Source of the DNA: Armatimonas sp.
GTDB lineage: Bacteria > Armatimonadota > Armatimonadia > Armatimonadales > Armatimonadaceae
Direction: 5' to 3'
Length of the DNA stretch: 61,625 nt
Assembly (NCBI RefSeq): GCF_043757465.1
Contig: NZ_JAYVPL010000091.1
Span: 1-61,625, forward strand
This document shows positions 8,137 to 47,137 of this stretch, piece by piece. Each line of letters begins with the position of its first letter. The first letter of the stretch is position 1. The notes below the pieces were generated by a model. The model saw only the letters and a program-made list of their open reading frames with translations, ran no database searches and was not told where the DNA came from. Made by a program: the position numbers and the translations under genes.

Positions 8137-9347
8137 AATGTCCCCTCCCAGCGCCACCACGCTGGTATTGTTGTTGAATTGATGCGCTCAAGTTTGAGCA
8201 CCTGCGGTTTACTATTGCGAATCCCCACCAGCGCCTCCAGTGCGACTCCCGCCCCCCCACTCTCGCCCCAAGCCCGCACGATAAACGTATCGCTCCCCAC
8301 ACACACCGCATCGGCGACCTGGCCCAGCAGAGCACCTGTCAGTGCGGGAATGCTGGTCAGCTCGCCCAGGGAGGCGAAGCCCGTGCTCTGGCGCGTGACA
8401 ATTGCACTGGTAATATCGGAAGTCATCCCGGGCAGGCTGAGGAGTACCGCTTCGGGTGCCGTGTTGATATTCACCTTGCCCGTGAGGCGTGTCTGGGTGG
8501 AGAAGCTCGCCGTATCGAGAACTTGTTGCGCGGCTTGTGGTGCGACCCCATTGCGGCCCAGTAGGTTAGCAAACGATGTGAACGGTCCCTGGGTCACAAG
8601 CTGTACCGGTAGCCCGAGCTGGAGCATTGTCAGGGGGCTCAGGTTCTGCTGGTTCAAGTTGGTACGGGCGCCCCCACTGGCCGTGGTGTTGGGCGACCCA
8701 CTGGAGACAGTCAGCACACTGATCAGTGCCAGCGTCTCCCCCACCTCGTCTTCCAGAAGGTTAGTAGCGGTAATCTCCTCGGCCTCAGGGGTATAAAGAG
8801 TACGCGCCGTCCAGCCTTTCACTAAGGCCAGCTCCGTGAGCGTTGTGAAATTGGCGAGCTTGGTGTTGTAGGGAGTCAGCAGCTCATTGTAGAACTGATC
8901 CTTGGCCCCCTCAGTGCGCGCTTGCTGACCGGCCTCGCGCCAGTCAAGAACACTGGCGACCTGCTCACTGGTAAGGGGTAGAGTCTGGAGCTGCGTCTCC
9001 GTAAGAGTATTGATGTTGAGCCGACTGCCCGCATCCAGAATCTGGACTCGGTAGGTTGCCCCGCTAGTTAGCTCCGTCGCCGTCGTGCCATTTCCACCGA
9101 CGAGTGCCCAGTCGTCGTCTAGCTTCACCAGATTCGTCGTGACTTCTTGCAAGCCCGAGAGCGCGATTGCGAGCCCAGAGCGAGCGGCTGCCTCCGCACG
9201 ACGCTCGCGCAGAGTGTTCATCGTGGTATTGAGGTAGGTGTTCTGGTTCGCGGCAAAAGTGGCTAAGAGAGCGAGTAAGCCGGCCAGGATCACGAGGGTC
9301 AGCACCATCACCCCACCGCGCTGCGCTCGCTTCTTTCCTCGTCTCAT
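8133..9347 (-). CDS. GspK-like minor pseudopilin
   Basis: 404 aa. Prepilin-like hydrophobic N-terminus (GGVMVLTLVILAGLLALLATFA) that lacks Glu at +5, a hallmark of GspK. The large periplasmic domain fits the size expected of GspK. Coupled to gspJ (ATGA overlap). Confidence 0.55.
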   Translation of the reverse strand: MRRGKKRAQRGGVMVLTLVILAGLLALLATFAANQNTYLNTTMNTLRERRAEAAARSGLAIALSGLQEVTTNLVKLDDDWALVGGNGTTATELTSGATYRVQILDAGSRLNINTLTETQLQTLPLTSEQVASVLDWREAGQQARTEGAKDQFYNELLTPYNTKLANFTTLTELALVKGWTARTLYTPEAEEITATNLLEDEVGETLALISVLTVSSGSPNTTASGGARTNLNQQNLSPLTMLQLGLPVQLVTQGPFTSFANLLGRNGVAPQAAQQVLDTASFSTQTRLTGKVNINTAPEAVLLSLPGMTSDITSAIVTRQSTGFASLGELTSIPALTGALLGQVADAVCVGSDTFIVRAWGESGGAGVALEALVGIRNSKPQVLKLERINSTTIPAWWRWEGTL

Positions 9348-10093
9348 GCCGTGCCTCCCGTACTGGTAGCAGTAGCGGGATTGTCGGAATCTACATCGCT
9401 AGCGGCCAGTGGTACCACAAAAGTATGCGTCTGGGCCTCAGAGTCTGTGGCGAGCGTGTAGCTCACTCGCACTGCTGCGGGAAGCCGCCGCGTGCCGCTT
9501 AGGGTATCCCAGATCGTGACCCACTCGGTACCATCATAGAACTCAAAGCCAAGCTGCGTCACCGCAGGCTCTAGCACCGACTCCGTGCCGCCTTGTGTCG
9601 CATCGCCATCAGCGGGCTGCTGCAAACGCTCAAAGAGCCCCGTGGTGCTCGTGGCGTCTCCCCCGACGGGTGCAATTCCTAACGAGACCTCGGTGATGCC
9701 TCCTTGTGGGCCAAACTGCTCGTGCTGGGTCTCAAAATCATCGGTACTCTGCTGGGTCGCCAGTGAAAGCCCCAGAGAGTCCGTTGTAAATGTCAGCCGA
9801 TCCGCTCCCAGCTTACCGTCGCCCTGCTCAGCGGCGGCAACAAAATATGTTGTCGTGTCCGCAGTGTCTTCCGAGAGCAGTGCGCCTTCCAGAAGACGGG
9901 TGATACGTTTCTCCACCCGCGCCGCCGGGTTCTGCTCACTCTGGCGCTGTGCTTGGCGGCGCTGCATGTCCAGTCCCCCGACAAAGGCGTAGACAAGCGC
10001 ACTGGTGAGAATGCCCATCATCACGAGCACCACCAGTAGCTCCAGCAGGGAAACCCCTGCCCGTCGCTTTCGTCTTCGTCGGTCTTGACTCAC
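9344..10093 (-). CDS. GspJ-like minor pseudopilin
   Basis: 249 aa. Prepilin-type N-terminus RRAGVSLLELLVVLVMMGIL (G at -1, E at +5). Positioned between the I-like and K-like genes. Confidence 0.55.
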   Translation of the reverse strand: MSQDRRRRKRRAGVSLLELLVVLVMMGILTSALVYAFVGGLDMQRRQAQRQSEQNPAARVEKRITRLLEGALLSEDTADTTTYFVAAAEQGDGKLGADRLTFTTDSLGLSLATQQSTDDFETQHEQFGPQGGITEVSLGIAPVGGDATSTTGLFERLQQPADGDATQGGTESVLEPAVTQLGFEFYDGTEWVTIWDTLSGTRRLPAAVRVSYTLATDSEAQTHTFVVPLAASDVDSDNPATATSTGGTA

Positions 10094-10479
10094 TGTCCGC
10101 TTGTCCCTGTTCCTGTGGTAGTTGTCTCTGGCCGGAAGAAGACCCGCTCAGAGATCACCTGCTCCGCCTCACCCCGCACCGCCGTAATCGTCGCTTCCTC
10201 CACATTCGCATCCTCGGTGGCTTGAAGCTCAAGAGTCCACTGGGCATCCGCGTAGCCCTCGGCGGAGAAGTCCCCTTTGGTAGCCGCCGTTCGCAGATCA
10301 CTCTCGACACGCAGCTCCGCTAGCTTCTGGACGGCCAGCCGCTGAAGAAGCTCTGCATTCCGGGCATAGGCATCGCTGCGAGAGAGCCGCCCTAGTGCCG
10401 TCAGCACCCCGGACAGTGCAATCCCAACCAGCGCCGTAGTGACCAGCATTTCCACTAGAGTGAAGGCGCGCTTACCCAC
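10090..10479 (-). CDS. GspI-like minor pseudopilin (probable GTG start at 10479; ORF-track start 10530 would overlap gspH by 58 bp)
   Basis: Prepilin motif KRAFTLVEMLVTTALVGIAL with E at +5, and small size (about 130 aa). The codons gtg ggt aag cgc gcc ttc begin immediately after the gspH-like stop. Confidence 0.55.
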   Translation of the reverse strand: MGKRAFTLVEMLVTTALVGIALSGVLTALGRLSRSDAYARNAELLQRLAVQKLAELRVESDLRTAATKGDFSAEGYADAQWTLELQATEDANVEEATITAVRGEAEQVISERVFFRPETTTTGTGTSGQ

Positions 10480-11020
10480 GTTTTTGCAGCTCCCCCGCAC
10501 TCCAGCGCTCTTCGCCGGGCTCGATCGCATTGGTGCTACTCCAGCGGGGCAGCTCGCCCGCCCCTGGCAGGCTCAGGCTGAGAATCTGATTCCCTTCCAC
10601 AAATTCCAGCCGCCCGACACGGGCCGAGCCATCAGGATAGATAGTCCACTCCCACGAAGCCAGATCCGTGCTCTTGCCCTCTAGCTGGGCTGCATCAAGT
10701 TGAATCTCTTTGCCTAAGCTCAGTCGCTTAAACTCAGTGATATCCGTCGTGTCTTTCCCAATCCGCTCCAGCACGAGGGTGCTGCTGCCTTCCGCGCGTA
10801 GGGTGATGGCTTGCTGGCTCTTGCGGGCCTCGTTTTGCGCCTCAGCGGGCAAGCGTAGAATGCTTGATTTAAGGCTCTGCACCTCGCGTGAGCGCTGAAG
10901 CGCAACCGTATTGGGCATTACCAGCGCTGCCAGCAAAGCAAGTATCGTAATCACTACCGTCGCCTCAATCAGCGTGAACAAGCTTCCCCGCCGGGCGGGG
11001 GCCGGGGAGGAGGCAGTCAT
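10472..11020 (-). CDS. GspH-like minor pseudopilin
   Basis: 182 aa. N-terminus RRGSLFTLIEATVVITILALLAALVMP is a prepilin-like helix with E at +5 if the mature protein starts at F. Its ATG immediately follows the gspG stop. Confidence 0.5.
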   Translation of the reverse strand: MTASSPAPARRGSLFTLIEATVVITILALLAALVMPNTVALQRSREVQSLKSSILRLPAEAQNEARKSQQAITLRAEGSSTLVLERIGKDTTDITEFKRLSLGKEIQLDAAQLEGKSTDLASWEWTIYPDGSARVGRLEFVEGNQILSLSLPGAGELPRWSSTNAIEPGEERWSAGELQKRG

Positions 11021-11434
11021 CTATTCGCTCGTGATATCCGAGGCATCACCCTCACCACCAGGAGCGCTGTCCGCACCATACGATGCGATGATGAAGTCCT
11101 GGCCGTCGGGTCCTGGCGACTCGTAGATATAATCGTTCTGCCAGGGATCGGTAGAGATTGCCTTCTGCGTGTAAGGGCCACGCCAGTTATTGATCCCGCT
11201 CGGCTGCGACTGTAGTGCCATCAGCCCTTGTTCGGTAGTGGGGAACTGATCGGTATCCACTTTGTACTGCGAGAGCAAACCGGAAAGAGTCGCAATATCG
11301 CTGGCAGCCTTAGCACGCTTGGCATCCCCCGTGCGGTTAACCACACGCGGAACAATCAGAGCGGCTAAAATCGCCAGGATCAACACCACAACCAGCATCT
11401 CAATAAGCGTAAACGCACGTTTTTGTTTTTTCAT
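11021..11434 (-). CDS. gspG: Major pseudopilin GspG
   Basis: 137 aa. MKKQKRAFTLIEMLVVVLILAILAALIVP is a class III signal peptide with E at +5. C-terminal GspG signature (...TDPWQNDYIYESPG...DF.I.SYGADS.PGGEGDASDI). RBS AGGAAA upstream. Ala rather than Gly at -1. Confidence 0.85.
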   Translation of the reverse strand: MKKQKRAFTLIEMLVVVLILAILAALIVPRVVNRTGDAKRAKAASDIATLSGLLSQYKVDTDQFPTTEQGLMALQSQPSGINNWRGPYTQKAISTDPWQNDYIYESPGPDGQDFIIASYGADSAPGGEGDASDITSE

Positions 11435-12651
11435 TTAATTGTTTCCTGCGCTTGAAATATCGGCAAGAGCACCGACAAAACAACAAACCCTACAAACGTT
11501 CCCATAGTCAGAACAATCACCGGCTCCACCATAGAGACAAGACGACGCATCCCCGTGTCAACCTCGAAGTCGAGGCTGTCCGAGACACGCCCGAGCATAC
11601 GCGGCAGATCCCCTGTCTCCTCACCAATAGCCACCATGTGGGTCAGCACCGGCGGGAAGGTTCCGGTATCCTGCATGGCCTCCGCGATAGGGCGCCCATT
11701 ACGCACTTCCTCGGAGACCTCTTTAGCACTTGTCTGGAACACCCGGTTGCCCGCGGAGAGCCCGGCAATATCCAGCGCCTCCAGGATCGGAACCCCCCCA
11801 TAGACCAGTGTCCCCAGCACGCGGGCGAAGCGTGAGATCGTCGCCTTCATCACCACCGGCCCAATCAGAGGCGCTTTCAGCATAAACTTATCTCGCTGAT
11901 ACGCCCCGTTTGCAGTCGCCAGCCAGCCCTTGACCAGCAGACTCCCTCCAATAAGCACCGCAAGAACCAGGATCCAGTTTTTAGTAATAAAATCGGTGCT
12001 CGCGAGAAGCATCTTGGTGGTCAACGGCAAGTCGTTGCCCAAAGACTTGAAGACCCCAGAGAGACGGGGAACCACAAACAAGAGCAAGAACAACACCACG
12101 AACACTGCCGTAGACGCCAGGATCGCTGGATAGACCAGGGCACCGCTGATCTGGCTGCGCCGTGCGACCTCTTTTTCCTGGAAATCCGCCAGCCGCCCCG
12201 CCACTTCGGGAAACTGGCCACTGGCTTCCCCAGCGCGCAGGGTCTGCGTGAAGACCTCATTGAAGAACTTAGGGTGCTTGCTCAGTGCCTGACTGACAGG
12301 CATACCAGAGCGTACATCCTCCAGAGTCTGCTCACAGACTTCCCGGAGTACCTGGCTTTCAGACTGCTCTGCTACCACCTGAAGCACACGATCCAGCGGG
12401 AGCCCCGCCTGCGACAGATCGGCAAGCCGCCGTGTAAAGAGCGCGAGCTCCTGGCGCGACGGTGCACGCCGTCCGCCAAAACTCGAACCCGCAGTGGCCA
12501 CGGAGCTCTTGGCCTCATTGATCTCAAGAACGAAGCGTCCCTCGGCATCGAGCCGCGCCAGTGCGGCCTCTTTGGTCTCCGCCTCGATCACGCCCGTGCG
12601 CTGTGCACCGCTGGCATCCATCGCGGTGTACGAGAAACTCAGCGCCGCCAT
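11431..12651 (-). CDS. gspF: Type II secretion system platform protein GspF (PilC family)
   Basis: 406 aa with two GspF/T2SSF repeats, three TM segments and conserved blocks (e.g. GLPLDRVL, VYPAILA, MLGRVSDSLDFEVD). Confidence 0.85.
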   Translation of the reverse strand: MAALSFSYTAMDASGAQRTGVIEAETKEAALARLDAEGRFVLEINEAKSSVATAGSSFGGRRAPSRQELALFTRRLADLSQAGLPLDRVLQVVAEQSESQVLREVCEQTLEDVRSGMPVSQALSKHPKFFNEVFTQTLRAGEASGQFPEVAGRLADFQEKEVARRSQISGALVYPAILASTAVFVVLFLLLFVVPRLSGVFKSLGNDLPLTTKMLLASTDFITKNWILVLAVLIGGSLLVKGWLATANGAYQRDKFMLKAPLIGPVVMKATISRFARVLGTLVYGGVPILEALDIAGLSAGNRVFQTSAKEVSEEVRNGRPIAEAMQDTGTFPPVLTHMVAIGEETGDLPRMLGRVSDSLDFEVDTGMRRLVSMVEPVIVLTMGTFVGFVVLSVLLPIFQAQETIK

Positions 12652-12654
12652 GGC

Positions 12655-14274
12655 TTAGAGTGCCTCCCGCTGACAGACACGCAGAACCTCTTCAGGAGTT
12701 GTCTTGCCCGCCAGCACCGCCAGCTTGCCGTCTCCCAGGAGCGTCCGCATCCCGTAGGTCTTGACAGCATAGTCCTTCATCTGGTTGGAGCTGGCACGAT
12801 CCACGGTCATCCGGCGGATCGGCTCATCAATCACAAAAAGCTCGTAGAGACCGACACGGCCTTTGTAGCCGCTTCCCTGGCACTTCTCGCAGCCCATGCC
12901 TTTTCGAAACGGAGCACTTCCCGCCCATTCGTGCGGCGTAATCCCCACTCCCTCAAGGATCTCACTCTCGGGCAAGTAGGGTGTCGCGCAGCTAGGGCAG
13001 ACGCGGCGCACGAGGCGCTGAGCCACGGCACCGATCAGCGAGGAGGCCACGAGATACGGCTCGACCCCCATGTCCAGAAGGCGCGTCACCGAGCCAGGGG
13101 AGTCGTTGGTGTGCAGGGTGGAGAAGACTAAGTGCCCGGTCAGCGCCGCGTGAATCGCGATCTCCGCCGTCTCGTGGTCGCGAATCTCTCCGACCATGAT
13201 CACATCCGGGTCCTGGCGCACGATACTGCGAAGCCCATTAGCAAACGTCAGGCCGATCGCGGCGCGCACGGGAATCTGGCTGATGCCGGGCACCTGGTAC
13301 TCAACGGGATCCTCAATGGTCAAGATATTGGTAGTCGGCGACCAGATCTCCTGTAGCGACGCATACAGCGTCGTGGACTTTCCCGCACCGGTCGGGCCCG
13401 TCGCCAGGATCACGCCGTAGGGCACTTTGATGATCTGGCGGTAGCGCTCCAGCATGTCCGGCTGGATGCCCAGCTCCGCAAGGCCCAGCATCGCGGTGCC
13501 TTTATCCAGGATACGCATCACGGCCCGCTCGCCAAAGACCGTCGGTACAATCGAGACACGGACATCAATGGCGCGCCCGGCAATCATGATCTTAATGCGC
13601 CCGTCTTGAGGCAAGCGGCGCTCGGCGATATTCATCTCGCCGAGAATCTTCAGGCGCGAGACGATCGCGGCGTGCATGCGCTTGGGCGGAGCCATCATGG
13701 CGCGCAGCATGCCGTCTATGCGGCAGCGAATCCTGACTTCTTTCTCGTAGGGCTCGATATGGATATCCGATGCCCCATCACGCACTGCCTGTGCAAAGAT
13801 CAGGTTGACCATCTGCACCACAGCCGTCTCCCCCGCCATCTTCTGCAGATCCGCCAGATCCGTATTCTCGTCGGCGTCTATGGCATTGGCATCATCACCC
13901 TGCCCTGGAAGACCCGCCAGGATCTTCTCCAAAAAAATCTCCTCGATCTTTTCCTTGATGATGGCAGGCGGCGCAAGAACAGCACGAGTGGGCCTTTGTA
14001 GCAAAACCCCTAGCTCATCCACAGCCCCCAGAGAAAGAGGCGAACCAATAGCAGCCACAAGAGTGCCGTGGTGCAATTTCAGCGGCAGGATCTGGTACTT
14101 GAGCGCGAAGTCTCCCGGAACCAGCGAGACCGCTTCGTCCTGAGGTCGTGTGATCTCAAGATCAACATGCTCAAATGCATCTTCAAGAGGAGGTAGAGTG
14201 ATCGGTTCTGAAGCAGTCATGTTATTCACAGTAAAGACGTTATCCGTCTCTAAAAGTTCGTGGCCCTTACTCAT
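12655..14274 (-). CDS. gspE: Type II secretion / type IV pilus assembly ATPase GspE (PilB family)
   Basis: 539 aa. Walker A (ILATGPTGAGKSTTLYASL), Asp box, Walker B (DPDVIMVGEIRD), His box (GHLVFSTLHTN) and a tetracysteine zinc motif (CPSC...CEKCQGSG). N-terminal GspE_N-like domain. Confidence 0.9.
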   Translation of the reverse strand: MSKGHELLETDNVFTVNNMTASEPITLPPLEDAFEHVDLEITRPQDEAVSLVPGDFALKYQILPLKLHHGTLVAAIGSPLSLGAVDELGVLLQRPTRAVLAPPAIIKEKIEEIFLEKILAGLPGQGDDANAIDADENTDLADLQKMAGETAVVQMVNLIFAQAVRDGASDIHIEPYEKEVRIRCRIDGMLRAMMAPPKRMHAAIVSRLKILGEMNIAERRLPQDGRIKIMIAGRAIDVRVSIVPTVFGERAVMRILDKGTAMLGLAELGIQPDMLERYRQIIKVPYGVILATGPTGAGKSTTLYASLQEIWSPTTNILTIEDPVEYQVPGISQIPVRAAIGLTFANGLRSIVRQDPDVIMVGEIRDHETAEIAIHAALTGHLVFSTLHTNDSPGSVTRLLDMGVEPYLVASSLIGAVAQRLVRRVCPSCATPYLPESEILEGVGITPHEWAGSAPFRKGMGCEKCQGSGYKGRVGLYELFVIDEPIRRMTVDRASSNQMKDYAVKTYGMRTLLGDGKLAVLAGKTTPEEVLRVCQREAL

Positions 14275-35640: not shown

Positions 35641-35829
35641 TTGACTTTCTTAACAATTCCTGGCACACTAGAGATACAGACGTGGGACACTCTCCTACAA
35701 CTGTGAGGGTATCGTCAACAAAAACGGTTCTTAACCGTTTCTTAGCTCGGAGTTAATAGTTCGCCCCACCGTCGGGGATAGACTGCCTGTGTGGGTACAA
35801 ACCCACCAAACAGCGGAGGAACCAAACAA

Positions 35830-36738
35830 ATGCAACAAACCAAACGTGGTTTCACACTTATCGAACTCTTAGTCGTGATCGCGATCATCGCGATTCTCGC
35901 CGCGATTCTCTTTCCTGTTTTTGCCCAAGCCCGTGAAAAGGCCCGCCAGACTGCCTGTCTCTCCAATGTAAAGCAAATCGGCACGTCCATGATGATGTAT
36001 GTCCAGGACTACGACGAGATCACTCCAGGTGCTCGTGGTGGTGGCTGGGAGTGGTGGACGGAGCTAATGCCCTATATCAAGAACCTTGATGTGCTCAACT
36101 GCCCGGATCGCACCAATGGTGGCCCGCGTACCCAGGGTTCCGTTGCGGGTGTGACCGCAGGCTGTGTGGGGGGAGTGTTCGTCCAGAGCCGGTACTCAGG
36201 CTACGGCTACAACTGGGGACCGATAAACTACCGTGGTGGTGGTCTGATGGGGCCGTCTATACCTGCCGTAGCGGGCGATGCTTGTGGTCGCCGCCATTCC
36301 GGAACGGCAATCGCCTCCATTGACTCCCCTGCACAGATGTTCGCCTACGGAGACACCTACGATACCCCCCGTATGACGGTCGGTATTGGCTTCGCAATGG
36401 ACGGTGCAGGTGCCCTGAGCCGTAACTCCTCGATCCGGCATGGCGCACAGTGGAACATGGGCTTTATGGATGGTCACGCCAAGAACGTCAAGATGATTGG
36501 CGGATTCATGGTGGGTGGTTTCAATAGCCGCATGGCCATGCCTGCCGTCCCGGCTATTGGTAGAATGGCGTACTGTGCTGACCCTGGCTATATCGTCAAC
36601 AACGCCGGAACGGCACAGCCCGATGGGACTAATATTCCCAGCACCCTGCGCTGTGATCAGGTAACAGACTGGATTCTCGCCAACTATCCGCGCTGTACAG
36701 CTGCCTCAAATGGCGGCAACTGTCTCTGGCTGGACTAG
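35830..36738 (+). CDS. DUF1559-type prepilin-like protein (N-terminal class III signal peptide)
   Basis: [51 protein letters not shown] is the characteristic DUF1559 N-terminus (G at -1, E at +5). GGAGGA RBS 9 nt upstream of the ATG at 35830. Confidence 0.75.
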
Positions 36739-41387: not shown

Positions 41388-42350
41388 CTATCCTCGCACA
41401 ACCTTGAGTGCGTTGCTGCCTTTCTCGTTGCCGGTCTTGGTGACGACATAGACTTTGACAAGAACGCCCTCGCCGCTTTCGATAAGCTCCAGGCTGCCGT
41501 GCCAGGTGAGGGTATCGGCACTGATCATGGCGACCACGGCCTCATTGCGAGTGTTGTAGCTAGGCAGAGGTGCGACACGGACACTGTAGTGATCGAGCTG
41601 GTCGTTGGCAGAGGCGGTCCAGGCAAGCTGGGCGCAGGTGTGGTCGGTGCTCCACTGCCCGCTTAACACCACGGCCTCGGGGGTGCTGCCCCCTGTGGGA
41701 TAAAGGCTGGGCACGGTGGTGAGCAAGGGGTGCGCGGCCTCGAAGTGAGCAACCACGGCGTTTTTATACTGGCGCAAACGGGTGACAAGCTCGGTGCGGA
41801 GGGTGTCACGGGTGCGCCGGTCTACGGCAAGCCCCTGCTCTTGAAGGCTAATCTGCTTATACACATCTTGCAGGGCAACTAATTCCTGCTGAAAGTTTGG
41901 CAGGGTGTAGCCCCCAGCGAGCTTCAAGCCCCCGCTGATCGCCTCGTCCCCAACCGCCACGTTAATTTTTTGCCAGAGGGTGTCCATCTCGGTGAAAGGC
42001 TTGAGTGTCCCGGCCATGTCTGCGGTCGCCAGCGGAAGCGTGGGGAGTGTCTTTGCAAACGGTGTTCCGTCGAGCGCACTCTTCACCGCCCCTCGAAACT
42101 GCGTCAGCCTTGGACGGAGCTTCGTCTTAAGCTGATCGCGCCTACGTGCCAGCGTCGCCAGGATCAGCACCGCCGCATCTACTTTTTGAACGAGCGTCGT
42201 TATATTAATCTGATCCGCAACAAGATTGCTGAGGCTGTAGCCCCCTTTAAGCTCTAGCGCGTCTGGAGCAAGGCTAACATTAACCCGCTCCCAGTGACTC
42301 GCCACATTTCCCAATGTCACCTGAAACCCACTGATGGTTGTAATCGGCAT
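41388..42350 (-). CDS. Hypothetical protein with an internal tandem duplication and a C-terminal beta-sandwich-like region; downstream partner of the STAND NTPase
   Basis: 320 aa. Two about 100 aa segments share the pattern L.LKGGYSL.N....I......V........L..RR..L...L...L.Q (residues ~20-125 and ~130-235). C-terminus ...HYSVRVAPLP...LVKVYVVTKTG is FN3-like. Lies 72 bp downstream of the NB-ARC gene on the same strand. Confidence 0.5.
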   Translation of the reverse strand: MPITTISGFQVTLGNVASHWERVNVSLAPDALELKGGYSLSNLVADQINITTLVQKVDAAVLILATLARRRDQLKTKLRPRLTQFRGAVKSALDGTPFAKTLPTLPLATADMAGTLKPFTEMDTLWQKINVAVGDEAISGGLKLAGGYTLPNFQQELVALQDVYKQISLQEQGLAVDRRTRDTLRTELVTRLRQYKNAVVAHFEAAHPLLTTVPSLYPTGGSTPEAVVLSGQWSTDHTCAQLAWTASANDQLDHYSVRVAPLPSYNTRNEAVVAMISADTLTWHGSLELIESGEGVLVKVYVVTKTGNEKGSNALKVVRG

Positions 42351-42422
42351 CTAAATTCTTTCCTCAATAGCATTGATGCTAGTCGTTATTGTACCACTCT
42401 GAAACAAAAACAGCACGGCAAT

Positions 42423-45400
42423 TTAACTTGGCGTATCTACGAAATCCAGCAAAGGTAATCTGTCAATCCACATATTTAATTCTTGCAAAACTATCAACAA
42501 CGATTGTAACGTCTCTTGTGTAATGGGATGATGTCTCCCCAGCATGTTATTAAATATTTTAAATGCTTTTTTTAGTAGTGGCACGGCGTCTGCTTTTTTC
42601 CCCATGTAATAATACATTACCGCCAAATTGTTGAGGCTTTGTGCAGTATCGGGATGATTGGCACCAAGCGACACTTCATAGATCAAAAGAGCGCGTTCAA
42701 ACAGAGGAAGCGCGGCGGCATAGTCACCCTGAGATTTGTACAGTTCCGCCAAGTTGTTGAGGCTAGTAGCAGTAAAGGGATGATTGGCACCAAGTGACAT
42801 TTCGCGAATCGAAAGAGCGCGTTCATATAGAAGAAGCGCAGCGGCATAGTTACCCTGAGATTCATACAGTCCTGCTAAGTTGCTGAGGCTTCTAGCGGTA
42901 TCGGGATGATTGGCACCAAGCGACATTTCACTGATCAAAAGAGCGCGTTCAAACAGAGGAAGCACGGCAGCATAGTTGCCCTGAGATTTATATAGCATTG
43001 CCAAATTATTAAGGCTAGTAGCGGTATTGGGATGATTGGCACCAAGAGACATTTCGCGAATCGAAAGAGCGCGTTCAAACAGAGGAAGTGCGGCAGCATA
43101 GTTACCCTGAGATTTATATAGCATTGCCAAATTATTAAGGCTAGTAGCGGTATTGGGATGATTGGCACCAAGAGACATTTCGCGAATCGAAAGAGCACGT
43201 TCAGACAGAGGAAGCGCGGCAGCATAGTTACCCTGAGATTCATACAGTTCTGCTAAGTTGCTGAGGCTTCTAGCGGTATCAGGATGATTGGCACCAAGCG
43301 ACGTTTCATAGATCAAAAGAGCGCGTTTGTACAAAGGAAGCGCGGCAGCATAGTCACCCTGAGATTTGTACAATCCTGCCAAGTTGCTAAGGCTAGTAGC
43401 AGTAGAGGGATGATTGGCACCAAGCGACATTTCACTGATCAAAAGAGCGCGTTCAAACAGAGGAAGCGCGGCAGCATAGTTGCCCTGAGATTTATATAGC
43501 ATTGCCAAATTATTAAGGCTAGTAGCAGTAGAGGGATGATTGGCACCAAGTGACATTTCGCGAATCGAAAGAGCGCGTTCATACAGAGGAAGCGCGACGA
43601 CATAGTTGCCCTGAGATTCATGCAGTCCTGCTAAGTTGTTGAGGCTAGTAGCAGTAGAGGGATGATTGGCACCAAGTGACATTTCGCGAATCGAAAGAGC
43701 GCGTTCAAACAGAGGAAGCGCGGCAGCATAGTCACCCTGAGATTCATGCAGTCCTGCTAAGTTGCTGAGGCTTCCAGCGGTATCAGGATGATCGGCACCA
43801 AGCGACGTTTCACAGATCAAAAGAGCACGTTCAGACAGAGGAAGCGCGGCGGCATAGTTGCCCTGAGATTCATGCAGTCCTGCTAAGTTGTTGAGGCTAG
43901 TAGCAGTATCAGGATGATCGGCACCAAGAGACATTTCACTGATCAAAAGAGCGCGTTCAAACAGAGGAAGTGCGGCAGCATAGTTACCCTGAGATTTATA
44001 TAGCATTGCCAAATTATTAAGGCTAGTAGCGGTATCAGGATGATTGGCGCCAAGCGACATTTCACTGATCAAAAGAGCGCGTTCAAACAGAGGAAGCGCG
44101 GCAGCATAGTCACCCTGAGATTTATGCAGTCCTGCTAAGTTGTTGAGGCTAGTAGCGGTATTGGGATGATCGGCACCAAGCGACATTTCACTGATCAAAA
44201 GAGCGCGTTCAAACAGAGGAAGCGCGGCGGCATAGTTGCCCTGAGATTCATACAACATTGCCAAGTTGTTGAGGCTAGTAGCGGTATTGGGATGATTGGC
44301 ACCAAGAGACATTTCACAGATTGAAAGAGCGCGTTCAAACAGAGGAAGCGCGGCAGCATAGTTGCCCTGAATGCGATACAGTGCACCCAGATTATTGAGA
44401 CTTTCAGCGGTATCAGGATGATTGGCGCCAGGCGACGTTTCGCGAATCGAAAGAGCACGTTTGTACAAAGGAAGCACGGTGGCATAATCAGCTTGGCGTT
44501 CTTTATGAAACCCTAGCTGGTTACAGAGCAACCCTGCGTGCTCTGTTTCAATGCCATGTCGAAAGATAATATCGGTAATTTTTTGTGAATGGCTTGCCAG
44601 ATGGCTGTAGTGATCCCAGCGAGTATTCCAATCGGTGGGGTGAGATTGCGAAACGGCGGTGATTGCAAGTTGCTGGTACTGGCTGTGTTCTTCCTCTGTC
44701 AAGCCATCAAGAATAACATCTTGTACCAACCGGTGCAGAGAGAAAAGCTGAGTGCCATAGACATAGCTCTCGTCGGTGCGGACACTCATAAGGGAAAACT
44801 TGAGGAGTCTTTGGATAGTTACATCGTAGACCAAAGCGTCAGCGGCGCACTTCTGGAGTGGCTCGGAGAGATGCGAACCAGCTTGTTTAAGAATGACATC
44901 GGGGATGTCGTCGGGGGCGAGAAACGCACACACACGAAGGAATTCGATGGCGGCTTCTCGGGCGACGGCGGCGGTTTCTTCATCCTCGCTGTCTTCCGGC
45001 CAGACTTCCCCAATACGCTGAACAGCGACCTCAAAGGTCGTCGCTACCGACTCATGCGAGATACCGGCCTGCGCTCCCCGGCGCTTGCGGAGCCTTGCCC
45101 CGCTCTGTGCATAGAGTGCCTGGTAGCTTGCCACTGTGCTAACGGAAGCTGCGATATAGGCACCGGCCTGATCCAGCGCAAGGGGCAAGCCGTCTACCGT
45201 GTGAGAGAATTTCTTTGCCGCTTTCCGCTCGGGAGATCCTTGGGGGTCGTGTCCGGCGCGAGTAAGGAGCAAGTCCGCCCCGGCATCATCGTTTAGCTCT
45301 TGCAGAGACACCCCGGCATCTTTAGGGACGATCTGATGGATTCGGGTGGTGATTAGCACCTGCCCCCCTCCCCCGGTGGGAAGATACGGCGCAATCGTTT

Positions 45401-46703
45401 GCAGGTCTTCGACGTTATCCAGAACCAGGAGGTAGTCGTCGTGGGTAGAAAGCTCCTGGCGCACGGCTTCACGTACCACGGAAATATCGGGAGTCTCGGC
45501 CTGCGGGAGCCGCAAGACGTAGGCGACACTCCGGTACTCTTCGTCTAGCGTGGCGGCACTCTCCGCACGCACCCAAAGAATTCCCAGGGGATACGACGCG
45601 GCGCTTGCATGGGCATACTCTAGCGCCGTCTGGGTTTTCCCCATCCCTCCCAGGCCAAAGAGATATGTTTTTTGGTGGCGCTCAAAGGCCTGGGAGAGCG
45701 CGGCAAGCTCCGCACGTCGCCCCACAAAGCCTTGGTTTCTTTCGTCAATCCGCCACGCCCGCTCTTTACCTGCCCAGAGCCGGGGATCAATACGCACTGC
45801 TTTTGCCACTTCCTTGGGCAAAGCATCTAGTCGTGTATCAAGATGTGCCTTCAGCCCGGCAACATCCACCCCGATTTTCTGAAGAATCTCTTGATGCCGT
45901 TGCAGTAAATCCACATCCAGCTTCCGGGCAAAGTCTTCTCCCCACGCAATGCAGCGCTTCTCAAATGCCTCAAAAGTGACTGTATTTGTCGCCTTTTGCT
46001 CCCGTGCAAAGGCCACCAGCTCCCCCAGCATTAAGAGTGTCAGCCCCGCGTGCCCTTTCCCATCCCCGGCAGCGTCGTGCTTGATAACTTCACGGAGTGC
46101 CTTTGGGAAAATCTCAGGTAGTAGCGCCGCCAGCCGCCAATAAATGGCCTCACCCGTGGTGGCTGTCACCATTCCCTCGGGCGCTTTCTCCCACCCCAGA
46201 TTTTTCAGTAGCGCGAACCAGTCGTCCGTGTGCAGTATCCGAACGTGCCCAACCGCCTCGGGAGTGACCGCGAACACACCCGGGAGCGACGCTTCCCGTA
46301 GAGCATCCGGGATTGCCCGCTCACTTTTGACTTGCTCTTCCCAGCGCGGCCCGATTCCCCGCGCCCAGGCAAGCACCGGCTCCTTTTCGGCCCGATGCAG
46401 CGGCGGCTCAAGCTGCTCGACAGCCGCCAGGAGAGAAATTGAGAGTGCCTGCCCCACCAGCTCCGTCAGATCGTGGTTTCGGAGCAGTTCCTCATGCCCC
46501 GTGAGCCGCTGTACCAGATTCTCGGAGACATCCCCACCAAACACCTCCCCGCTCAGGCTTTTTAGAAGATCGATCAGTGTTGCGCCTGCAACGGCCACTG
46601 CTGCCTTTCCCGGTTCCACGGCTCCCATTAGGGTCGCGGCAACTAGAAGCGTTCCGAACGTCAGCATTCGGACAGTCGTGTTTTGAAGAGTAGGTCGAGC
46701 CAT
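42423..46703 (-). CDS. STAND NTPase: unknown N-terminal domain + NB-ARC + TPR array (bacterial NLR-like protein)
   Basis: 1426 aa. NB-ARC P-loop (GLGGMGKTQTALEYAH), hhhhD Walker B (YLLVLDNVED) and GxP-like region. C-terminus has about 15 x 42-aa TPR_10/12-type repeats (ALSIREMSLGANHPNTATSLNNLAMLYKSQGNYAAALPLFER). The N-terminal ~330 aa has no recognisable motif and begins with a hydrophobic stretch (MLTFGTLLVAATLMGAV). An internal Met at 46667 is an alternative start. Confidence 0.85.
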   Translation of the reverse strand: MARPTLQNTTVRMLTFGTLLVAATLMGAVEPGKAAVAVAGATLIDLLKSLSGEVFGGDVSENLVQRLTGHEELLRNHDLTELVGQALSISLLAAVEQLEPPLHRAEKEPVLAWARGIGPRWEEQVKSERAIPDALREASLPGVFAVTPEAVGHVRILHTDDWFALLKNLGWEKAPEGMVTATTGEAIYWRLAALLPEIFPKALREVIKHDAAGDGKGHAGLTLLMLGELVAFAREQKATNTVTFEAFEKRCIAWGEDFARKLDVDLLQRHQEILQKIGVDVAGLKAHLDTRLDALPKEVAKAVRIDPRLWAGKERAWRIDERNQGFVGRRAELAALSQAFERHQKTYLFGLGGMGKTQTALEYAHASAASYPLGILWVRAESAATLDEEYRSVAYVLRLPQAETPDISVVREAVRQELSTHDDYLLVLDNVEDLQTIAPYLPTGGGGQVLITTRIHQIVPKDAGVSLQELNDDAGADLLLTRAGHDPQGSPERKAAKKFSHTVDGLPLALDQAGAYIAASVSTVASYQALYAQSGARLRKRRGAQAGISHESVATTFEVAVQRIGEVWPEDSEDEETAAVAREAAIEFLRVCAFLAPDDIPDVILKQAGSHLSEPLQKCAADALVYDVTIQRLLKFSLMSVRTDESYVYGTQLFSLHRLVQDVILDGLTEEEHSQYQQLAITAVSQSHPTDWNTRWDHYSHLASHSQKITDIIFRHGIETEHAGLLCNQLGFHKERQADYATVLPLYKRALSIRETSPGANHPDTAESLNNLGALYRIQGNYAAALPLFERALSICEMSLGANHPNTATSLNNLAMLYESQGNYAAALPLFERALLISEMSLGADHPNTATSLNNLAGLHKSQGDYAAALPLFERALLISEMSLGANHPDTATSLNNLAMLYKSQGNYAAALPLFERALLISEMSLGADHPDTATSLNNLAGLHESQGNYAAALPLSERALLICETSLGADHPDTAGSLSNLAGLHESQGDYAAALPLFERALSIREMSLGANHPSTATSLNNLAGLHESQGNYVVALPLYERALSIREMSLGANHPSTATSLNNLAMLYKSQGNYAAALPLFERALLISEMSLGANHPSTATSLSNLAGLYKSQGDYAAALPLYKRALLIYETSLGANHPDTARSLSNLAELYESQGNYAAALPLSERALSIREMSLGANHPNTATSLNNLAMLYKSQGNYAAALPLFERALSIREMSLGANHPNTATSLNNLAMLYKSQGNYAAVLPLFERALLISEMSLGANHPDTARSLSNLAGLYESQGNYAAALLLYERALSIREMSLGANHPFTATSLNNLAELYKSQGDYAAALPLFERALLIYEVSLGANHPDTAQSLNNLAVMYYYMGKKADAVPLLKKAFKIFNNMLGRHHPITQETLQSLLIVLQELNMWIDRLPLLDFVDTPS
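42567..44456 (-). repeat. About 15 tandem, near-identical 126-bp in-frame repeats encoding the TPR units
   Basis: Recurrent near-identical blocks such as gcgcgttcaaacagaggaagcgcggcagcatagt...ccctgagatt...attggcaccaag..gacatttc. Units differ at only a handful of codons. Coordinates derived from the protein repeat register. Confidence 0.85.
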
Positions 46704-46733: not shown

Positions 46734-47102
46734 ATGAAGGACGATATGCCAACCTACGGTTACCGCTGCACCGTGTGCAGCCATGAGTTCGAGCGCGTTC
46801 AAAAGATGAGCGACCCGCGCATCACCGAGTGCGAAGAGTGCGACGGCCTGGTGAAGAAGATCATCTACCCCGTTGGAATCTCTTTCAAGGGCGACGGCTT
46901 CTACATCAACGACTCGAAAAAAGAGACGTCCAAGGCCAAGCCTGCGGAGACCAAGCCTGCCGAAGCCGAGAGCAAGTCCACGGAAGCCAAAACCGAGACT
47001 GCCTCTACGGAGACGAAAACCGAGACCAAGTCCGACACTCCCAAAACGGAAACGGCCTCGGCTTCAACAACGAAGACCGAGACCAAACCCGCCGCGCCGT
47101 AG
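46734..47102 (+). CDS. FmdB-family zinc-ribbon protein with a low-complexity ETK/TET-rich tail
   Basis: MPTYGYRCTVCSHEFERVQKMSDPRITECEECDGLVKKIIYPVGISFKGDGFY matches FmdB/CxxC_CxxC_SSSS zinc-ribbon proteins. The C-terminal 70 aa are Lys/Glu/Thr-rich and likely disordered. Start ATG at 46734 or 46746. Confidence 0.65.
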   Translation: MKDDMPTYGYRCTVCSHEFERVQKMSDPRITECEECDGLVKKIIYPVGISFKGDGFYINDSKKETSKAKPAETKPAEAESKSTEAKTETASTETKTETKSDTPKTETASASTTKTETKPAAP

Positions 47103-47124
47103 CCCGCCGATTTCAATCGGCGGA
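47103..47124. terminator. Short hairpin between the convergent FmdB and flotillin genes
   Basis: ccgccga-tttcaa-tcggcgg is a 7-bp stem with no U-tract. Weak. Confidence 0.25.
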
Positions 47125-47137
47125 CTCTATCCACGGA

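What the first reader, a model, noticed from the sequence alone, without database searches (positions are those of the whole stretch)
42567..44456. Highly homogenised 126-bp TPR repeats with variation confined to a few codon positions
About 15 consecutive 42-aa TPR units are nearly identical at the nucleotide level, which points to recent unequal crossing-over or concerted evolution. The amino-acid differences recur at the same register positions: IR/IS/IC/IY at positions 4-5, M/T at 7, N/D at 11, N/D/S/F at 14, M/G/E at 24, Y/H at 26, K/E at 27, N/D at 31 and F/S/Y at 40. Position-restricted hypervariability inside homogenised repeats is the signature described for fungal NLR WD40/ANK/TPR sensors, where the variable positions map to the ligand-binding surface. 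Here it would imply a rapidly evolving recognition surface. It also makes the locus prone to assembly collapse or expansion.
Basis: seen in the sequence. Interest (0 to 1): 0.7.

Follow-up and report, generated by a model that had tools for sequence, protein, structure and literature searches.

The report
Expanded TPR array in bacterial NLR-like gene
An Armatimonas bacterium carries an intact NLR-type (NB-ARC ATPase plus TPR) gene whose sensor was built by amplifying one 126-bp repeat about 14-fold; this is a real but moderately diverged example of a repeat architecture already described for fungal and bacterial NLRs, not a new kind of system.

Summary
The array is real and lies exactly at 42567-44456 on the minus strand: 15 in-frame 126-bp (42-aa) TPR_10/TPR_12 units with no indels, inside a 1426-aa gene (unannotated N-terminal domain, NB-ARC, DUF7779, TPR). 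"Nearly identical" is overstated. The 13 core units are 86% identical at the nucleotide level (79-98%), half of the variable sites are synonymous, and pS is 0.29. Syntenic orthologues in other Armatimonas assemblies have a single unit where the window has 14, and two of them are pseudogenes. The flanking gene differs from them at pS 0.64. The array is therefore a lineage-specific amplification, and the units are mosaic (Rmin at least 11). Twelve positions vary. About half match ligand-contacting positions of kinesin light chain and canonical TPRs (P 0.01-0.06). However, they also track the positions that vary across the whole TPR_10 family (rho 0.60), and pN/pS is below 1 in every class, so diversifying selection is not shown. 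An assembly artefact is unlikely because the longest exact internal repeat is 92 nt. Highly conserved repeats in bacterial NLRs were already reported in 2020 and 2026. Verdict: a new member of a known kind, of modest interest.

The parts
42423..46703 (-). Complete CDS of the NLR-like STAND protein, 1426 aa. RefSeq WP_395091363.1 is the same protein called from an internal GTG start (1391 aa).
   Evidence: ORF list and translation; Pfam architecture; cluster look-up naming Armatimonas sp. and a 61,625-bp contig.
45744..46703 (-). N-terminal all-helical domain (aa 1-320) with no Pfam, NCBIfam or PDB match. It has Gly/Ala-rich hydrophobic helices at aa 9-55 and conserved motifs NHDLTELVG (46452-46478) and FPKALREVIKHD (46074-46109). 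It is the presumed effector or signalling module.
   Evidence: No family hits. Exhaustive HMMER finds 128 representatives, mostly N-termini of NB-ARC-TPR or NACHT proteins. Profile search against PDB is empty. The AF2 model is low confidence but helical. Motif coordinates.
45084..45665 (-). NB-ARC nucleotide-binding domain (aa 347-540): Walker A GLGGMGKTQTA at 45624-45656, Walker B LLVLDNVED at 45405-45431, VLITTR at 45342-45359, GLPLAL at 45174-45191.
   Evidence: Pfam PF00931, E = 3.6e-11. The nearest solved relatives are AfsR and ZAR1. Motif positions.
44688..44957 (-). DUF7779 domain (aa 583-672), which I take to be the winged-helix module usual at this position in NB-ARC-TPR proteins, including an MHD-like FSLHRLVQ motif at 44721-44744.
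   Evidence: Pfam PF25000, E = 4.4e-11; motif position.
44457..44582 (-). Unit 0: a degenerate N-terminal capping TPR unit, 38-44% nucleotide identity to the array units. It is orthologous to unit o0 of relatives (64-67%).
42567..44456 (-). The reported array: 15 in-frame 126-bp (42-aa) TPR_10/TPR_12 units, with no indels.
   Evidence: TRF; unit table; identity matrix; Pfam; AF2 model with pLDDT 84 showing a continuous run of helix pairs.
42693..44330 (-). Core of the array, units 2-14. Mean nucleotide identity is 86% and mean amino-acid identity 83%. Together with unit 1, these units correspond to a single unit (oA) in the orthologues.
42441..42566 (-). Unit 16: a degenerate C-terminal capping unit, orthologous to unit oC of relatives (64-66%).
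41388..42350 (-). Downstream 320-aa gene of unknown family, on the same strand 72 nt after the stop codon. It is conserved in the same position in the orthologous loci and may be a co-transcribed partner.
   Evidence: ORF list; no Pfam, PADLOC or NCBIfam hit; a 321-aa gene follows the orthologue in L001-L004 and L007; no terminator-like site in the gap.

Best explanation
The array is the ligand-sensor domain of a bacterial NLR-like STAND ATPase, with the order unannotated helical N-terminal domain, NB-ARC, DUF7779, then a 42-residue kinesin-light-chain-type TPR superhelix, in an Armatimonas chromosome.

Shown here. In this lineage one ancestral 126-bp TPR unit was amplified in tandem to about 14 copies, after the split from the nearest sampled relatives. 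The copies have since been reshuffled by unequal recombination or gene conversion, and now form a mosaic of a few old sequence cassettes. Scaffold residues are under purifying selection. About twelve positions vary, and roughly half of them lie on the groove-facing stripe of helix A and the adjoining face of helix B.

Inferred from family knowledge of STAND/NLR proteins. The lengthened and varied concave groove binds a ligand, which could be a peptide or a protein of self or foreign origin. Binding releases autoinhibition of the NB-ARC module. ADP/ATP exchange then drives oligomerisation, which activates the N-terminal domain. With its Gly/Ala-rich hydrophobic helices, that domain most plausibly acts on the membrane or recruits a partner.

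Not shown. Whether the variation is adaptive diversification of specificity or simply tolerated drift cannot be decided from one allele.
For: - Architecture and intact ATPase motifs.
- TPR model: pLDDT 84, pTM 0.78, an unbroken run of helix pairs. The closest solved TPRs by sequence are KLC1/KLC2, at 36-44% identity in the Foldseek alignments.
- Synteny: the order MoaA, GH32, YqiJ_N, Band_7, NLR, 321-aa gene, SIS is shared with Armatimonas loci L001-L004 and L007.
- Copy number: those orthologues have unit 0, one canonical unit (oA), a unit-15-like unit (oB) and the cap.
- Unit relationships: window units 1-14 each match oA best (70-77%) but match one another at 79-98%.
- Relative timing: pS among units is 0.29, against 0.64 for the non-repeat part compared with the orthologues.
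- Shared descent: residues that vary freely in the wider family (positions 8, 11, 29, 34, 35, 37, 41) are fixed across the array.
- Mosaicism: four gametes in 49% of site pairs, Rmin at least 11, no decay of identity with distance, and recurring cassettes such as TCGATTCGC (SIR) and TTGATCAGT (LIS).
- Substrate for recombination: five exact repeats of 60-92 nt.
- Purifying selection on the scaffold: pN/pS is 0.28 outside the groove positions.
- Groove mapping: KLC1 ligand contacts R327, K340, N343/N344, V305/L347, R266 and K309/N351 (PMC6214655) fall on register positions 5, 18, 21/22, 25, 28 and 29. Canonical concave TPR positions 2, 5, 9, 12, 13, 33 and 34 (PMC1261162) correspond to register positions 18, 21, 25, 28, 29, 7 and 8.
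- Enrichment: overlap with the variable set gives P = 0.014-0.058, and pN is 0.159 at groove positions against 0.064 elsewhere.
Against: - No test gives pN/pS above 1: it is 0.31-0.49 for the groove classes and 0.31 for the 14 closest unit pairs.
- Variability per position follows the family-wide tolerance profile (rho = 0.60). 'Position-restricted' variation is therefore what any TPR_10 array would show.
- Positions 27 and 40 correspond to canonical core positions 11 and 24, and positions 3 and 7 face away from the groove by helical phase.
- Synonymous differences are also concentrated in the same codon blocks (pS 0.51 against 0.23). This fits old cassettes being shuffled better than fresh mutation at hot spots.
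- Internal amino-acid identity of 0.7-0.8 is common among homologous NB-ARC-TPR proteins.
- There is no PADLOC defence-system hit beyond a generic TPR model, and the neighbourhood is housekeeping.
- The nearest orthologues are decaying, so the gene family is dispensable.
- The ligand, the oligomerisation step and the N-terminal activity are all inferred.
- I could not obtain model coordinates, so surface mapping rests on register alignment and helical phase.
Confidence: 0.6

Rival explanations
1. Neutral expansion. The array grew by replication slippage or unequal crossing-over with no selective benefit. The twelve variable positions are simply those the TPR_10 fold tolerates, and the gene may be drifting towards the pseudogene state seen in its relatives.
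For: - pN/pS is below 1 in all classes.
- Array variability correlates with family-wide tolerance (rho = 0.60).
- Among positions that are free in the family, groove positions vary no more often than the rest: 5 of 8 against 5 of 11, my count.
- Orthologues carry a frameshift (L001) or two nonsense codons (L007).
- The substitution spectrum is ordinary, with 42 transitions and 10 transversions.
Against: - A 4.3-kb ORF with 15 repeats stays in frame with no indel or stop.
- Scaffold codons show purifying selection alongside many synonymous differences.
- The NB-ARC motifs are intact.
- Helix-B positions that are free in the family (34, 35, 37, 41) carry only singletons or no variation, while groove positions 5, 15, 18, 21, 25 and 28 are polymorphic in several units.
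Confidence: 0.25
2. The protein is a non-immune regulatory STAND protein: a signal-transducing ATPase of the AfsR, MalT or FxSxx-COOH-system TPR type. Its TPRs would scaffold a fixed partner, and the repeat number would be incidental.
For: - NCBIfam equivalog NF040586 (FxSxx_TPR) scores 561.7 bits against a 300-bit cutoff, with the best stretch at aa 320-705.
- The best solved NB-ARC relative is AfsR (E = 6.6e-11).
- The gene sits in a conserved core-genome neighbourhood, not a defence island.
Against: - There is no DNA-binding domain (SARP, BTAD or HTH).
- No FxsA/FxsB-type neighbours were found. The only radical SAM gene nearby has the domain pattern of MoaA (Radical_SAM plus Mob_synth_C).
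- The score of the FxSxx model is inflated by 15 TPR units, and RefSeq itself names the protein only 'tetratricopeptide repeat protein'.
- The closest architectural relatives carry TIR, SEFIR or cyclase N-termini typical of NLR-like death or defence proteins.
Confidence: 0.1
3. The repeat number or order is an assembly artefact, produced by collapse or expansion of near-identical repeats in a draft or MAG contig.
For: The window is an entire 61,625-bp contig of an Armatimonas sp. assembly. A related MAG contig (L006) ends inside unit 0, as if the assembly broke at a repeat.
Against: - Every unit is unique in nucleotide and amino-acid sequence.
- The longest exact repeat inside the array is 92 nt, and only five reach 60 nt or more. 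Reads of 150 nt, or k-mers above 92, resolve the path unambiguously.
- The reading frame is preserved through all 15 units and there are no Ns.
Confidence: 0.04
4. Variation arises from targeted mutagenesis: a diversity-generating retroelement or similar mechanism writing variation into specific codons.
For: Several variable codons are AAY (Asn) codons changing to Asp or Ser, which superficially resembles adenine-directed mutagenesis.
Against: - No reverse transcriptase was found among the contig ORFs I scanned.
- Variable sites are not enriched for A: 9 of 46, against 28 of 126 in the consensus.
- Half of the variable sites are synonymous third positions.
Confidence: 0.01

Closest known systems
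Fungal NLRs with high-internal-conservation (HIC) TPR repeats, e.g. [quoted passage not shown] 2014, PMC4986451; Ament-Velasquez & Saupe 2026, PMC13449251)
   Same: Both combine NB-ARC with 42-residue TPR units in tandem. Units are unusually similar to each other, and copy number differs between related genomes (2 to more than 14 in Podospora; 1 against 14 here). Units appear shuffled, and the variable positions include the helix-A groove face.
   Different: Fungal HIC units are 80-100% identical, with a few sites formally under positive selection and length polymorphism within a species. Here the core units are 79-98% identical at the nucleotide level with dS of about 0.37. No test shows omega above 1, and only between-lineage copy-number differences could be shown. 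The organism is a bacterium and the N-terminal domain is different.
Bacterial NB-ARC/TPR and NACHT/WD NLR-like proteins of Actinobacteria and Cyanobacteria with 80-90% internally conserved repeats (bioRxiv 10.1101/2020.01.06.895854; PMC13449251, section 12)
   Same: Same architecture class in prokaryotes. The presence of internally conserved TPR units in bacterial NLRs is stated explicitly in these papers. The 2026 survey includes transmembrane-helix N-termini among HIC NLR architectures.
   Different: Those surveys covered chosen bacterial groups, and a full-text search found no paper combining NB-ARC, TPR and Armatimonadetes. No adjacent Bell-domain or amyloid-motif partner gene is seen here. 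The N-terminal domain of this protein is not one of the named families.
Kinesin light chain TPR domain (KLC1/KLC2; PDB 3NF1, 3ZFW, 6FUZ, 7AI4)
   Same: This is the closest solved structure by sequence (E down to 2.6e-64; 36-44% identity in the Foldseek alignments). It has the same 42-residue unit with the LGxxHPxxAxxLNNLA motif. Ligand contacts on the concave groove fall on register positions 5, 18, 21, 22, 25, 26, 28, 29 and 33, and five of these vary in the array. The N/S choice at position 21 sets KLC1/KLC2 cargo specificity (PMC6214655).
   Different: KLC has six divergent units, is eukaryotic, has no ATPase module and binds cargo adaptor peptides. It serves here only as a structural template.
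42PR consensus-like TPR proteins (Marold et al. 2015; PDB 4Y6C, 4Y6W)
   Same: A naturally occurring 42-residue TPR-like repeat with high internal identity, detected by sequence at E = 4e-22 to 7e-20.
   Different: The PDB molecule name points to a Podospora (fungal) protein. The paper itself was not available to me, so nothing further could be compared.
Avs / bNACHT antiphage STAND NTPases (cited as Gao et al. 2022 and Kibby et al. 2023 in PMC13449251)
   Same: Tripartite logic of an N-terminal effector, a STAND ATPase and a C-terminal repeat sensor. This is the working model for ligand-triggered oligomerisation in bacteria.
   Different: No PADLOC Avs or bNACHT model matches. The ATPase is of the NB-ARC type, and the locus is not in a defence island.

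Membership tests
NLR-like STAND NTPase of the NB-ARC clade | P-loop NTPase with Walker A, Walker B and the ARC-type helical (GLPLAL) and winged-helix modules | tested here: met
   Pfam NB-ARC aa 347-540 and DUF7779 aa 583-672. Motifs GLGGMGKTQTA, LLVLDNVED, VLITTR, GLPLAL and FSLHRLVQ are located. AfsR and ZAR1 are the nearest solved relatives.
NLR-like STAND NTPase of the NB-ARC clade | C-terminal superstructure-forming repeat domain | tested here: met
   15 TPR_10/TPR_12 stretches. The AF2 model shows an unbroken run of helix pairs through the array, pLDDT 84.
NLR-like STAND NTPase of the NB-ARC clade | N-terminal effector or adaptor domain of recognised type | tested here: inconclusive
   A 320-aa helical domain has no Pfam, NCBIfam, PADLOC or PDB match. 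The same domain heads many NB-ARC-TPR and NACHT proteins. Its activity is unknown.
NLR-like STAND NTPase of the NB-ARC clade | Ligand-triggered nucleotide exchange and oligomerisation | not testable with these tools
   Requires biochemistry.
High-internal-conservation (HIC) NLR repeats, in the sense of Dyrka 2014 and Ament-Velasquez & Saupe 2026 | Repeat units about 80-100% identical to each other (the 2014 Podospora set used more than 85%) | tested here: inconclusive
   The array is borderline. Core units 2-14 are 86% identical in nucleotides and 83% in amino acids. All 15 units are 83% and 79% identical respectively, and the terminal units 64-81%. Homologous bacterial NB-ARC-TPR proteins often reach 0.7-0.8 amino-acid identity.
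High-internal-conservation (HIC) NLR repeats, in the sense of Dyrka 2014 and Ament-Velasquez & Saupe 2026 | Repeat-number polymorphism between strains | tested here: inconclusive
   Between lineages the difference is 14 to 1. Within-species alleles could not be found: the exact protein is on one contig only and the metagenome scans were empty.
High-internal-conservation (HIC) NLR repeats, in the sense of Dyrka 2014 and Ament-Velasquez & Saupe 2026 | Evidence of repeat shuffling or concerted evolution | tested here: met
   Four-gamete failures in 49% of site pairs, Rmin at least 11, no distance decay, and recurrent cassettes. Units are closer to each other than to the orthologous unit.
High-internal-conservation (HIC) NLR repeats, in the sense of Dyrka 2014 and Ament-Velasquez & Saupe 2026 | Positive diversifying selection at a few codons | tested here: not met
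   Nei-Gojobori pN/pS is 0.26-0.31 overall, 0.31-0.49 for groove classes and 0.31 for the closest pairs. Only two individual pairs exceed 1, and not significantly. Power is low with a single allele.
High-internal-conservation (HIC) NLR repeats, in the sense of Dyrka 2014 and Ament-Velasquez & Saupe 2026 | Variable positions lie on the ligand-binding (concave) surface | tested here: inconclusive
   Six of 11 groove positions defined beforehand are variable, against 6 of 31 others (P = 0.036). Positions 15 and 40 are added by helical phase, while 3, 7 and 27 point elsewhere.
42-residue KLC-type TPR (Pfam TPR_10 / TPR_12) | Profile match over the full 42-residue unit and a helix-turn-helix fold | tested here: met
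   TPR_10 E = 3.7e-210 with profile positions 1-42 of 42 matched. KLC matches reach E = 2.6e-64. Helix A spans register positions 14-29 and helix B spans 33 through 8 of the next unit.
Known antiphage STAND systems (Avs, bNACHT and others in PADLOC-DB 2.0) | Match to a system-specific protein model | tested here: not met
   Only the generic PDLC01169 'TPR' model matches, and the neighbours give no hits.
FxSxx-COOH system TPR protein (NCBIfam NF040586) | HMM score above the curated cutoff | tested here: met
   561.7 bits against a 300-bit cutoff. The score is summed over four stretches and includes 15 TPR units.
FxSxx-COOH system TPR protein (NCBIfam NF040586) | Genomic association with the FxSxx-COOH precursor and its radical SAM/SPASM maturase (system composition recalled from memory) | tested here: not met
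   No such genes were found among the contig ORFs I scanned. The only radical SAM protein has the domain pattern of MoaA (Radical_SAM plus Mob_synth_C).
Diversity-generating retroelement target | Nearby reverse transcriptase and template repeat, with adenine-specific variation | tested here: not met
   No reverse transcriptase among the scanned ORFs. There is no A bias at variable sites.

The most novel reading that the evidence does not exclude
This would be a working bacterial immune or non-self receptor in Armatimonadota that tunes specificity by amplifying and reshuffling TPR cassettes, as fungal HIC NLRs do. It would be coupled to a previously undescribed N-terminal effector domain: Gly/Ala-rich hydrophobic helices plus the NHDLTKAVG and FPKALREVLKxD motifs. 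That domain is shared with NB-ARC and NACHT proteins of filamentous cyanobacteria and would kill or signal through the membrane.
Probability: 0.2. Interest if true: 0.55.

Novelty: new member of a known kind. Interest (0 to 1): 0.33.

Why it matters
If the adaptive reading holds, the locus is a compact bacterial case with usable comparators. Relatives retain a single unit and are pseudogenised, which makes it possible to study how NLR sensors gain specificity by expanding and shuffling repeats. That process has so far been analysed mainly in Podospora. The locus also points to an unannotated N-terminal domain family attached to many prokaryotic NLR-like ATPases. Practically, the RefSeq name 'tetratricopeptide repeat protein' hides an NLR architecture, and the RefSeq start site probably removes 35 conserved residues. 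As it stands the finding adds an example and does not change what is known.

Tried and rejected
- Exact-protein look-ups for other contigs carrying the gene, in both the 1426-aa and 1391-aa forms, found nothing beyond the window's own contig.
- A metagenome scan with an orthologue alignment and a two-unit DNA pattern scan both returned nothing, so no population alleles were obtained.
- A search of 5.8 billion proteins with five array units found nothing above 67% identity. There is therefore no evidence of a paralogue exchanging units.
- A word-based search with the N-terminal domain found only the orthologues. The exhaustive HMMER search was needed to reveal the family.
- The AF2 model of the N-terminal domain was too poor (pLDDT 50) for a fold search. 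A profile search against PDB gave only chance hits.
- Marold et al. 2015 could not be read.
- Foreign origin of the array, suggested by 48% GC against about 60%, was rejected as specific to the array. The orthologues' TPR region shows the same GC3 drop.
- The DGR hypothesis was rejected.
- Higher-order periodicity: lag-4 and lag-7 identities are only slightly raised (0.876 and 0.881 against 0.86), and TRF reports only the 126-nt period.
- Model coordinates are not exposed by the tools, so surface accessibility could not be computed.
Full report
**What is at the coordinates**

Tandem Repeats Finder reports one array at 42612-44486 with period 126, 14.9 copies, 85% matches and no indels. It lies inside the minus-strand ORF 42423-46703, which encodes 1426 aa.

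I cut the protein into 42-residue units starting at aa 708. A degenerate unit 0 (44457-44582) and a degenerate C-terminal unit 16 (42441-42566) cap the array.

Pfam gives the following architecture:
- no match for aa 1-320
- NB-ARC at aa 347-540
- DUF7779 at aa 583-672
- fifteen TPR_10/TPR_12 stretches

Walker A (GLGGMGKTQTA), Walker B (LLVLDNVED), VLITTR, GLPLAL and an MHD-like FSLHRLVQ motif are all present. The protein is in public databases as WP_395091363.1, 'tetratricopeptide repeat protein [Armatimonas sp.]'. The window is that record's whole 61,625-bp contig.

**How similar the units are**

| Comparison | Nucleotide identity |
|---|---|
| Units 2-14, pairwise | 86% mean, range 79-98% |
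| Units 1-15, pairwise | 83% mean |
| Unit 1 against the other units | 71-81% |
| Unit 15 against the other units | 64-71% |

Amino-acid identity is 83% for the core units and 79% for all fifteen, and no two units are identical.

Among the core units 46 of 126 nucleotide sites vary, and 23 of these are at third codon positions. Nei-Gojobori estimates give pS 0.29, pN 0.09 and dN/dS 0.26.

Many residues that never change in the array still carry synonymous differences: I4, S8, P14, T16, L20, N22, L23, L26 and G31. The units are therefore related but not 'nearly identical', and the scaffold is being kept by purifying selection rather than only by recent copying.

In the register A1-L2-S3-I4-R5, the positions that vary in at least two units are 3, 5, 7, 12, 15, 18, 21, 25, 27, 28, 32 and 40.

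**Is the array an artefact?**

Every unit has a unique sequence. The longest exact repeat within 42401-44600 is 92 nt, and only five repeats reach 60 nt. Ordinary short reads or k-mers above 92 would resolve the path unambiguously. The frame is intact throughout. Only read data could settle this completely, but collapse or expansion is unlikely.

**Where the array came from**

A search with aa 1-749 found just three close homologues at 63-68% identity. All other hits were about 30% identical NB-ARC-TPR proteins carrying TIR, SEFIR, cyclase or HTH N-termini.

The contigs carrying the close homologues are syntenic with the window. The shared order is MoaA, GH32, YqiJ_N, Band_7, this gene, a 321-aa gene, then SIS. 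One of the homologues is from an Armatimonas MAG.

In L001, seen in 12 contigs from several samples, the orthologue is split by a frameshift. Its TPR region consists of unit 0, one canonical unit (oA), a unit resembling window unit 15 (oB) and the cap. L007 has the same four units and two in-frame stop codons. L006 ends inside unit 0.

Nucleotide identities pair the units as follows:

| Window unit | Orthologue unit | Identity |
|---|---|---|
| w0 | o0 | 64-67% |
| w15 | oB | 69-75% |
| w16 | oC | 64-66% |
| w1 to w14 | oA | 70-77% |

Fourteen window units therefore correspond to one unit in the relatives.

The non-repeat part of the gene differs from the orthologues at pS 0.64 (dS about 1.4), against pS 0.29 (dS about 0.37) among the units. 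The amplification or homogenisation is younger than the lineage split, but it is not very recent.

Residues that vary freely across the wider TPR_10 family are fixed throughout the array: positions 8, 11, 29, 34, 35, 37 and 41. This again points to common descent from one unit.

**Shuffling**

Four observations point to repeated exchange between units rather than simple neighbour duplication:
- 49% of pairs of informative sites show all four allele combinations, which gives a minimum of 11 recombination events within the 126-nt unit.
- Identity does not fall with distance along the array: adjacent and non-adjacent units both average 0.86.
- Short cassettes recur in different combinations. TCGATTCGC (SIR) occurs six times, TTGATCAGT (LIS) five times, and TTGGCAATGCTATATAAA (LAMLYK) four times.
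- The terminal units are the most divergent, as expected when exchange is less frequent at array edges.

The 60-92-nt identical tracts provide substrate for homologous recombination. That they are long enough for it is my inference.

**Do the variable positions mark a binding surface?**

The AF2 model of aa 708-1426 is confident (pLDDT 84, pTM 0.78). It places helix A at register positions 14-29, helix B at position 33 through position 8 of the next unit, and loops at 9-13 and 30-32. The nearest solved structures by sequence are the KLC1 and KLC2 TPR domains.

Two sets of groove positions were defined independently of the array:
- Published KLC1 contacts with JIP1 and TorsinA peptides (PMC6214655) repeat with period 42. 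They map to register 5 (R327), 18 (K340), 21 (N259, N301, N343), 22 (N302, N344, N386), 25 (V305, L347), 26 (L348), 28 (R266), 29 (K309, N351) and 33 (Y313).
- Canonical concave TPR positions 2, 5, 9, 12, 13, 33 and 34 (PMC1261162) map to register 18, 21, 25, 28, 29, 7 and 8. This uses the Pfam TPR_1 alignment.

Overlap of the array's variable set with these groove positions:

| Groove set | Variable / total | P |
|---|---|---|
| KLC1 contacts | 5 of 9 | 0.058 |
| Canonical concave | 5 of 7 | 0.014 |
| Union | 6 of 11 | 0.036 |

By helical phase, position 15 lies on the same face of helix A as 18, 22, 25 and 29. Position 40 lies on the same stripe of helix B as contact positions 33 and 5. Positions 27, 3 and 7 point the other way, and positions 12 and 32 are in loops. 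This phase assignment is my calculation from the helix boundaries.

About seven of the twelve variable positions are therefore groove-facing. This includes four of the five most variable (15, 5, 25 and 40); position 3 is the exception. KLC1 and KLC2 differ by N/S at register 21, which sets cargo specificity. The array shows the same N/S alternation at that position.

**Why this falls short of 'hypervariable under selection'**

- pN is 2.5-fold higher at groove positions (0.159 against 0.064), but pN/pS stays at 0.31-0.49.
- Synonymous differences are concentrated in the same codons (pS 0.51 against 0.23). That is what shuffling of old cassettes would produce.
- The fourteen closest unit pairs give pN/pS 0.31. 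Only u6-u10 and u3-u6 exceed 1, with seven nonsynonymous differences against one or two synonymous, which is not significant.
- Per-position entropy in the array correlates with entropy across 527 TPR_10 units from 171 other proteins (rho = 0.60, P = 3e-5).
- Among positions that are free in the family, groove positions vary no more often than the others: 5 of 8 against 5 of 11, my count.
- Internal amino-acid identity of 0.7-0.8 is common among homologous NB-ARC-TPR proteins. What stands out here is the copy number and the nucleotide-level relatedness.

Adenine-directed mutagenesis is excluded. There is no A bias at variable sites, the spectrum is 42 transitions to 10 transversions, and no reverse transcriptase is among the contig ORFs I scanned.

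**Most likely function**

The gene is an NLR-like STAND ATPase. By analogy with characterised members of that class, the TPR superhelix would bind a ligand in its groove and release NB-ARC autoinhibition. Oligomerisation would follow and activate the N-terminal domain. None of these steps was tested here.

The N-terminal domain is helical, with Gly/Ala-rich hydrophobic helices near the start. It belongs to an unannotated family of 128 representatives at E below 1e-3. These are found mostly at the N-termini of NB-ARC-TPR and NACHT proteins, and also as short stand-alone proteins, in filamentous cyanobacteria and Armatimonadota. That distribution is typical of NLR effector modules.

The case for an immune role is weaker. 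No PADLOC system model matches, and the locus is in a conserved housekeeping neighbourhood. The NCBIfam FxSxx_TPR model scores above its cutoff, but none of the partner genes I expect for that system is present.

**Comparison with what is known**

- Highly conserved 42-residue TPR units in fungal NLRs are well described. They show repeat-number polymorphism, shuffling and variable sites on the concave face (PMC4986451).
- The same property has been stated for bacterial NB-ARC-TPR and NACHT-WD proteins (bioRxiv 10.1101/2020.01.06.895854).
- A full-text search found no paper combining NB-ARC, TPR and Armatimonadetes. That is only a taxonomic extension.

**Verdict**

The repeat array is real and was produced by lineage-specific amplification and shuffling within an intact NLR-like gene. 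The claim of near-identity is overstated, and adaptive hypervariability is plausible but not shown. The finding is a new member of a known kind, and I score its interest at about 0.33.

Noticed in passing
window 45744-46703 (-), aa 1-320: The N-terminal domain belongs to an unannotated family. It has Gly/Ala-rich hydrophobic helices followed by the conserved motifs NHDL(T/S)KAVG and FPKALREVLKxDFxxGGKAFAGL. There are 128 representatives at E below 1e-3, mostly at the N-termini of NB-ARC-TPR or NACHT proteins, plus stand-alone proteins of 240-330 aa, in Oscillatoria, Ancylothrix, Kamptonema and Armatimonadota. It has no Pfam, NCBIfam or PDB match and is a candidate new NLR effector domain.
   Followed up: partly
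window 46598-46703 (-): RefSeq calls the protein from an internal GTG (1391 aa). The upstream ATG at 46703 adds 35 residues (MARPTLQNTTVRMLTFG...) that are conserved from residue 1 in all orthologues, so the annotated start is probably too short.
   Followed up: partly
L001 7168-9809; L007 1001-3716: The two nearest sampled orthologues are inactivated: a frameshift in L001 splits the gene into 273 aa and 602 aa, and L007 has two nonsense codons (W to stop, Q to stop). Both keep only one canonical TPR unit where the window has 14. The intact, expanded copy in the window is the exception.
   Followed up: yes
window 42423-44700 compared with 44700-46703; L001 8001-9809: GC3 drops abruptly from 0.6-0.7 to about 0.4 at the boundary between the nucleotide-binding region and the TPR region (aa 660-690). 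The orthologue L001 shows the same drop, and neighbouring genes have GC3 of 0.66-0.76. The cause is unexplained. It could be an old module swap from a lower-GC donor or relaxed codon selection in the TPR part.
   Followed up: partly
window 41388-42350 (-): A 320-aa gene with no detectable family lies 72 nt downstream on the same strand, and it keeps this position in all orthologous loci. It may be a functional partner of the NLR-like gene.
   Followed up: partly
window 46745-47130 (+): A divergently oriented small gene begins only about 41 nt from the NLR start codon. Its product starts MKDDMPTYGYRCTVCSHEFE..., which I read as an FmdB-like zinc ribbon, and a Zn_ribbon_8 gene occupies the matching place in L001 and L004. 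The CHRD-domain gene that sits between the Zn_ribbon gene and the NLR gene in L001, L003 and L004 (and immediately upstream of the NLR gene in L007) is absent from the window.
   Followed up: no
window 42423-46703 (-): The NCBIfam equivalog model NF040586 (FxSxx-COOH system TPR protein) scores 562 bits against a cutoff of 300, although I found none of the partner genes I expect for that system (composition recalled from memory). Long TPR arrays appear to inflate this model's score.
   Followed up: partly
window 2936-14274 and 35791-36738: The rest of the contig is ordinary core genome. It carries a type II secretion / type IV pilus-like cluster (secretin, PilN, T2SS K, F and E proteins), RecG, KatG-type peroxidase, MoeA, SecA, LpxB, MnmE and a DUF1559 protein with a prepilin-type N-terminal methylation motif. 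No mobile-element or defence-island markers were seen.
   Followed up: partly
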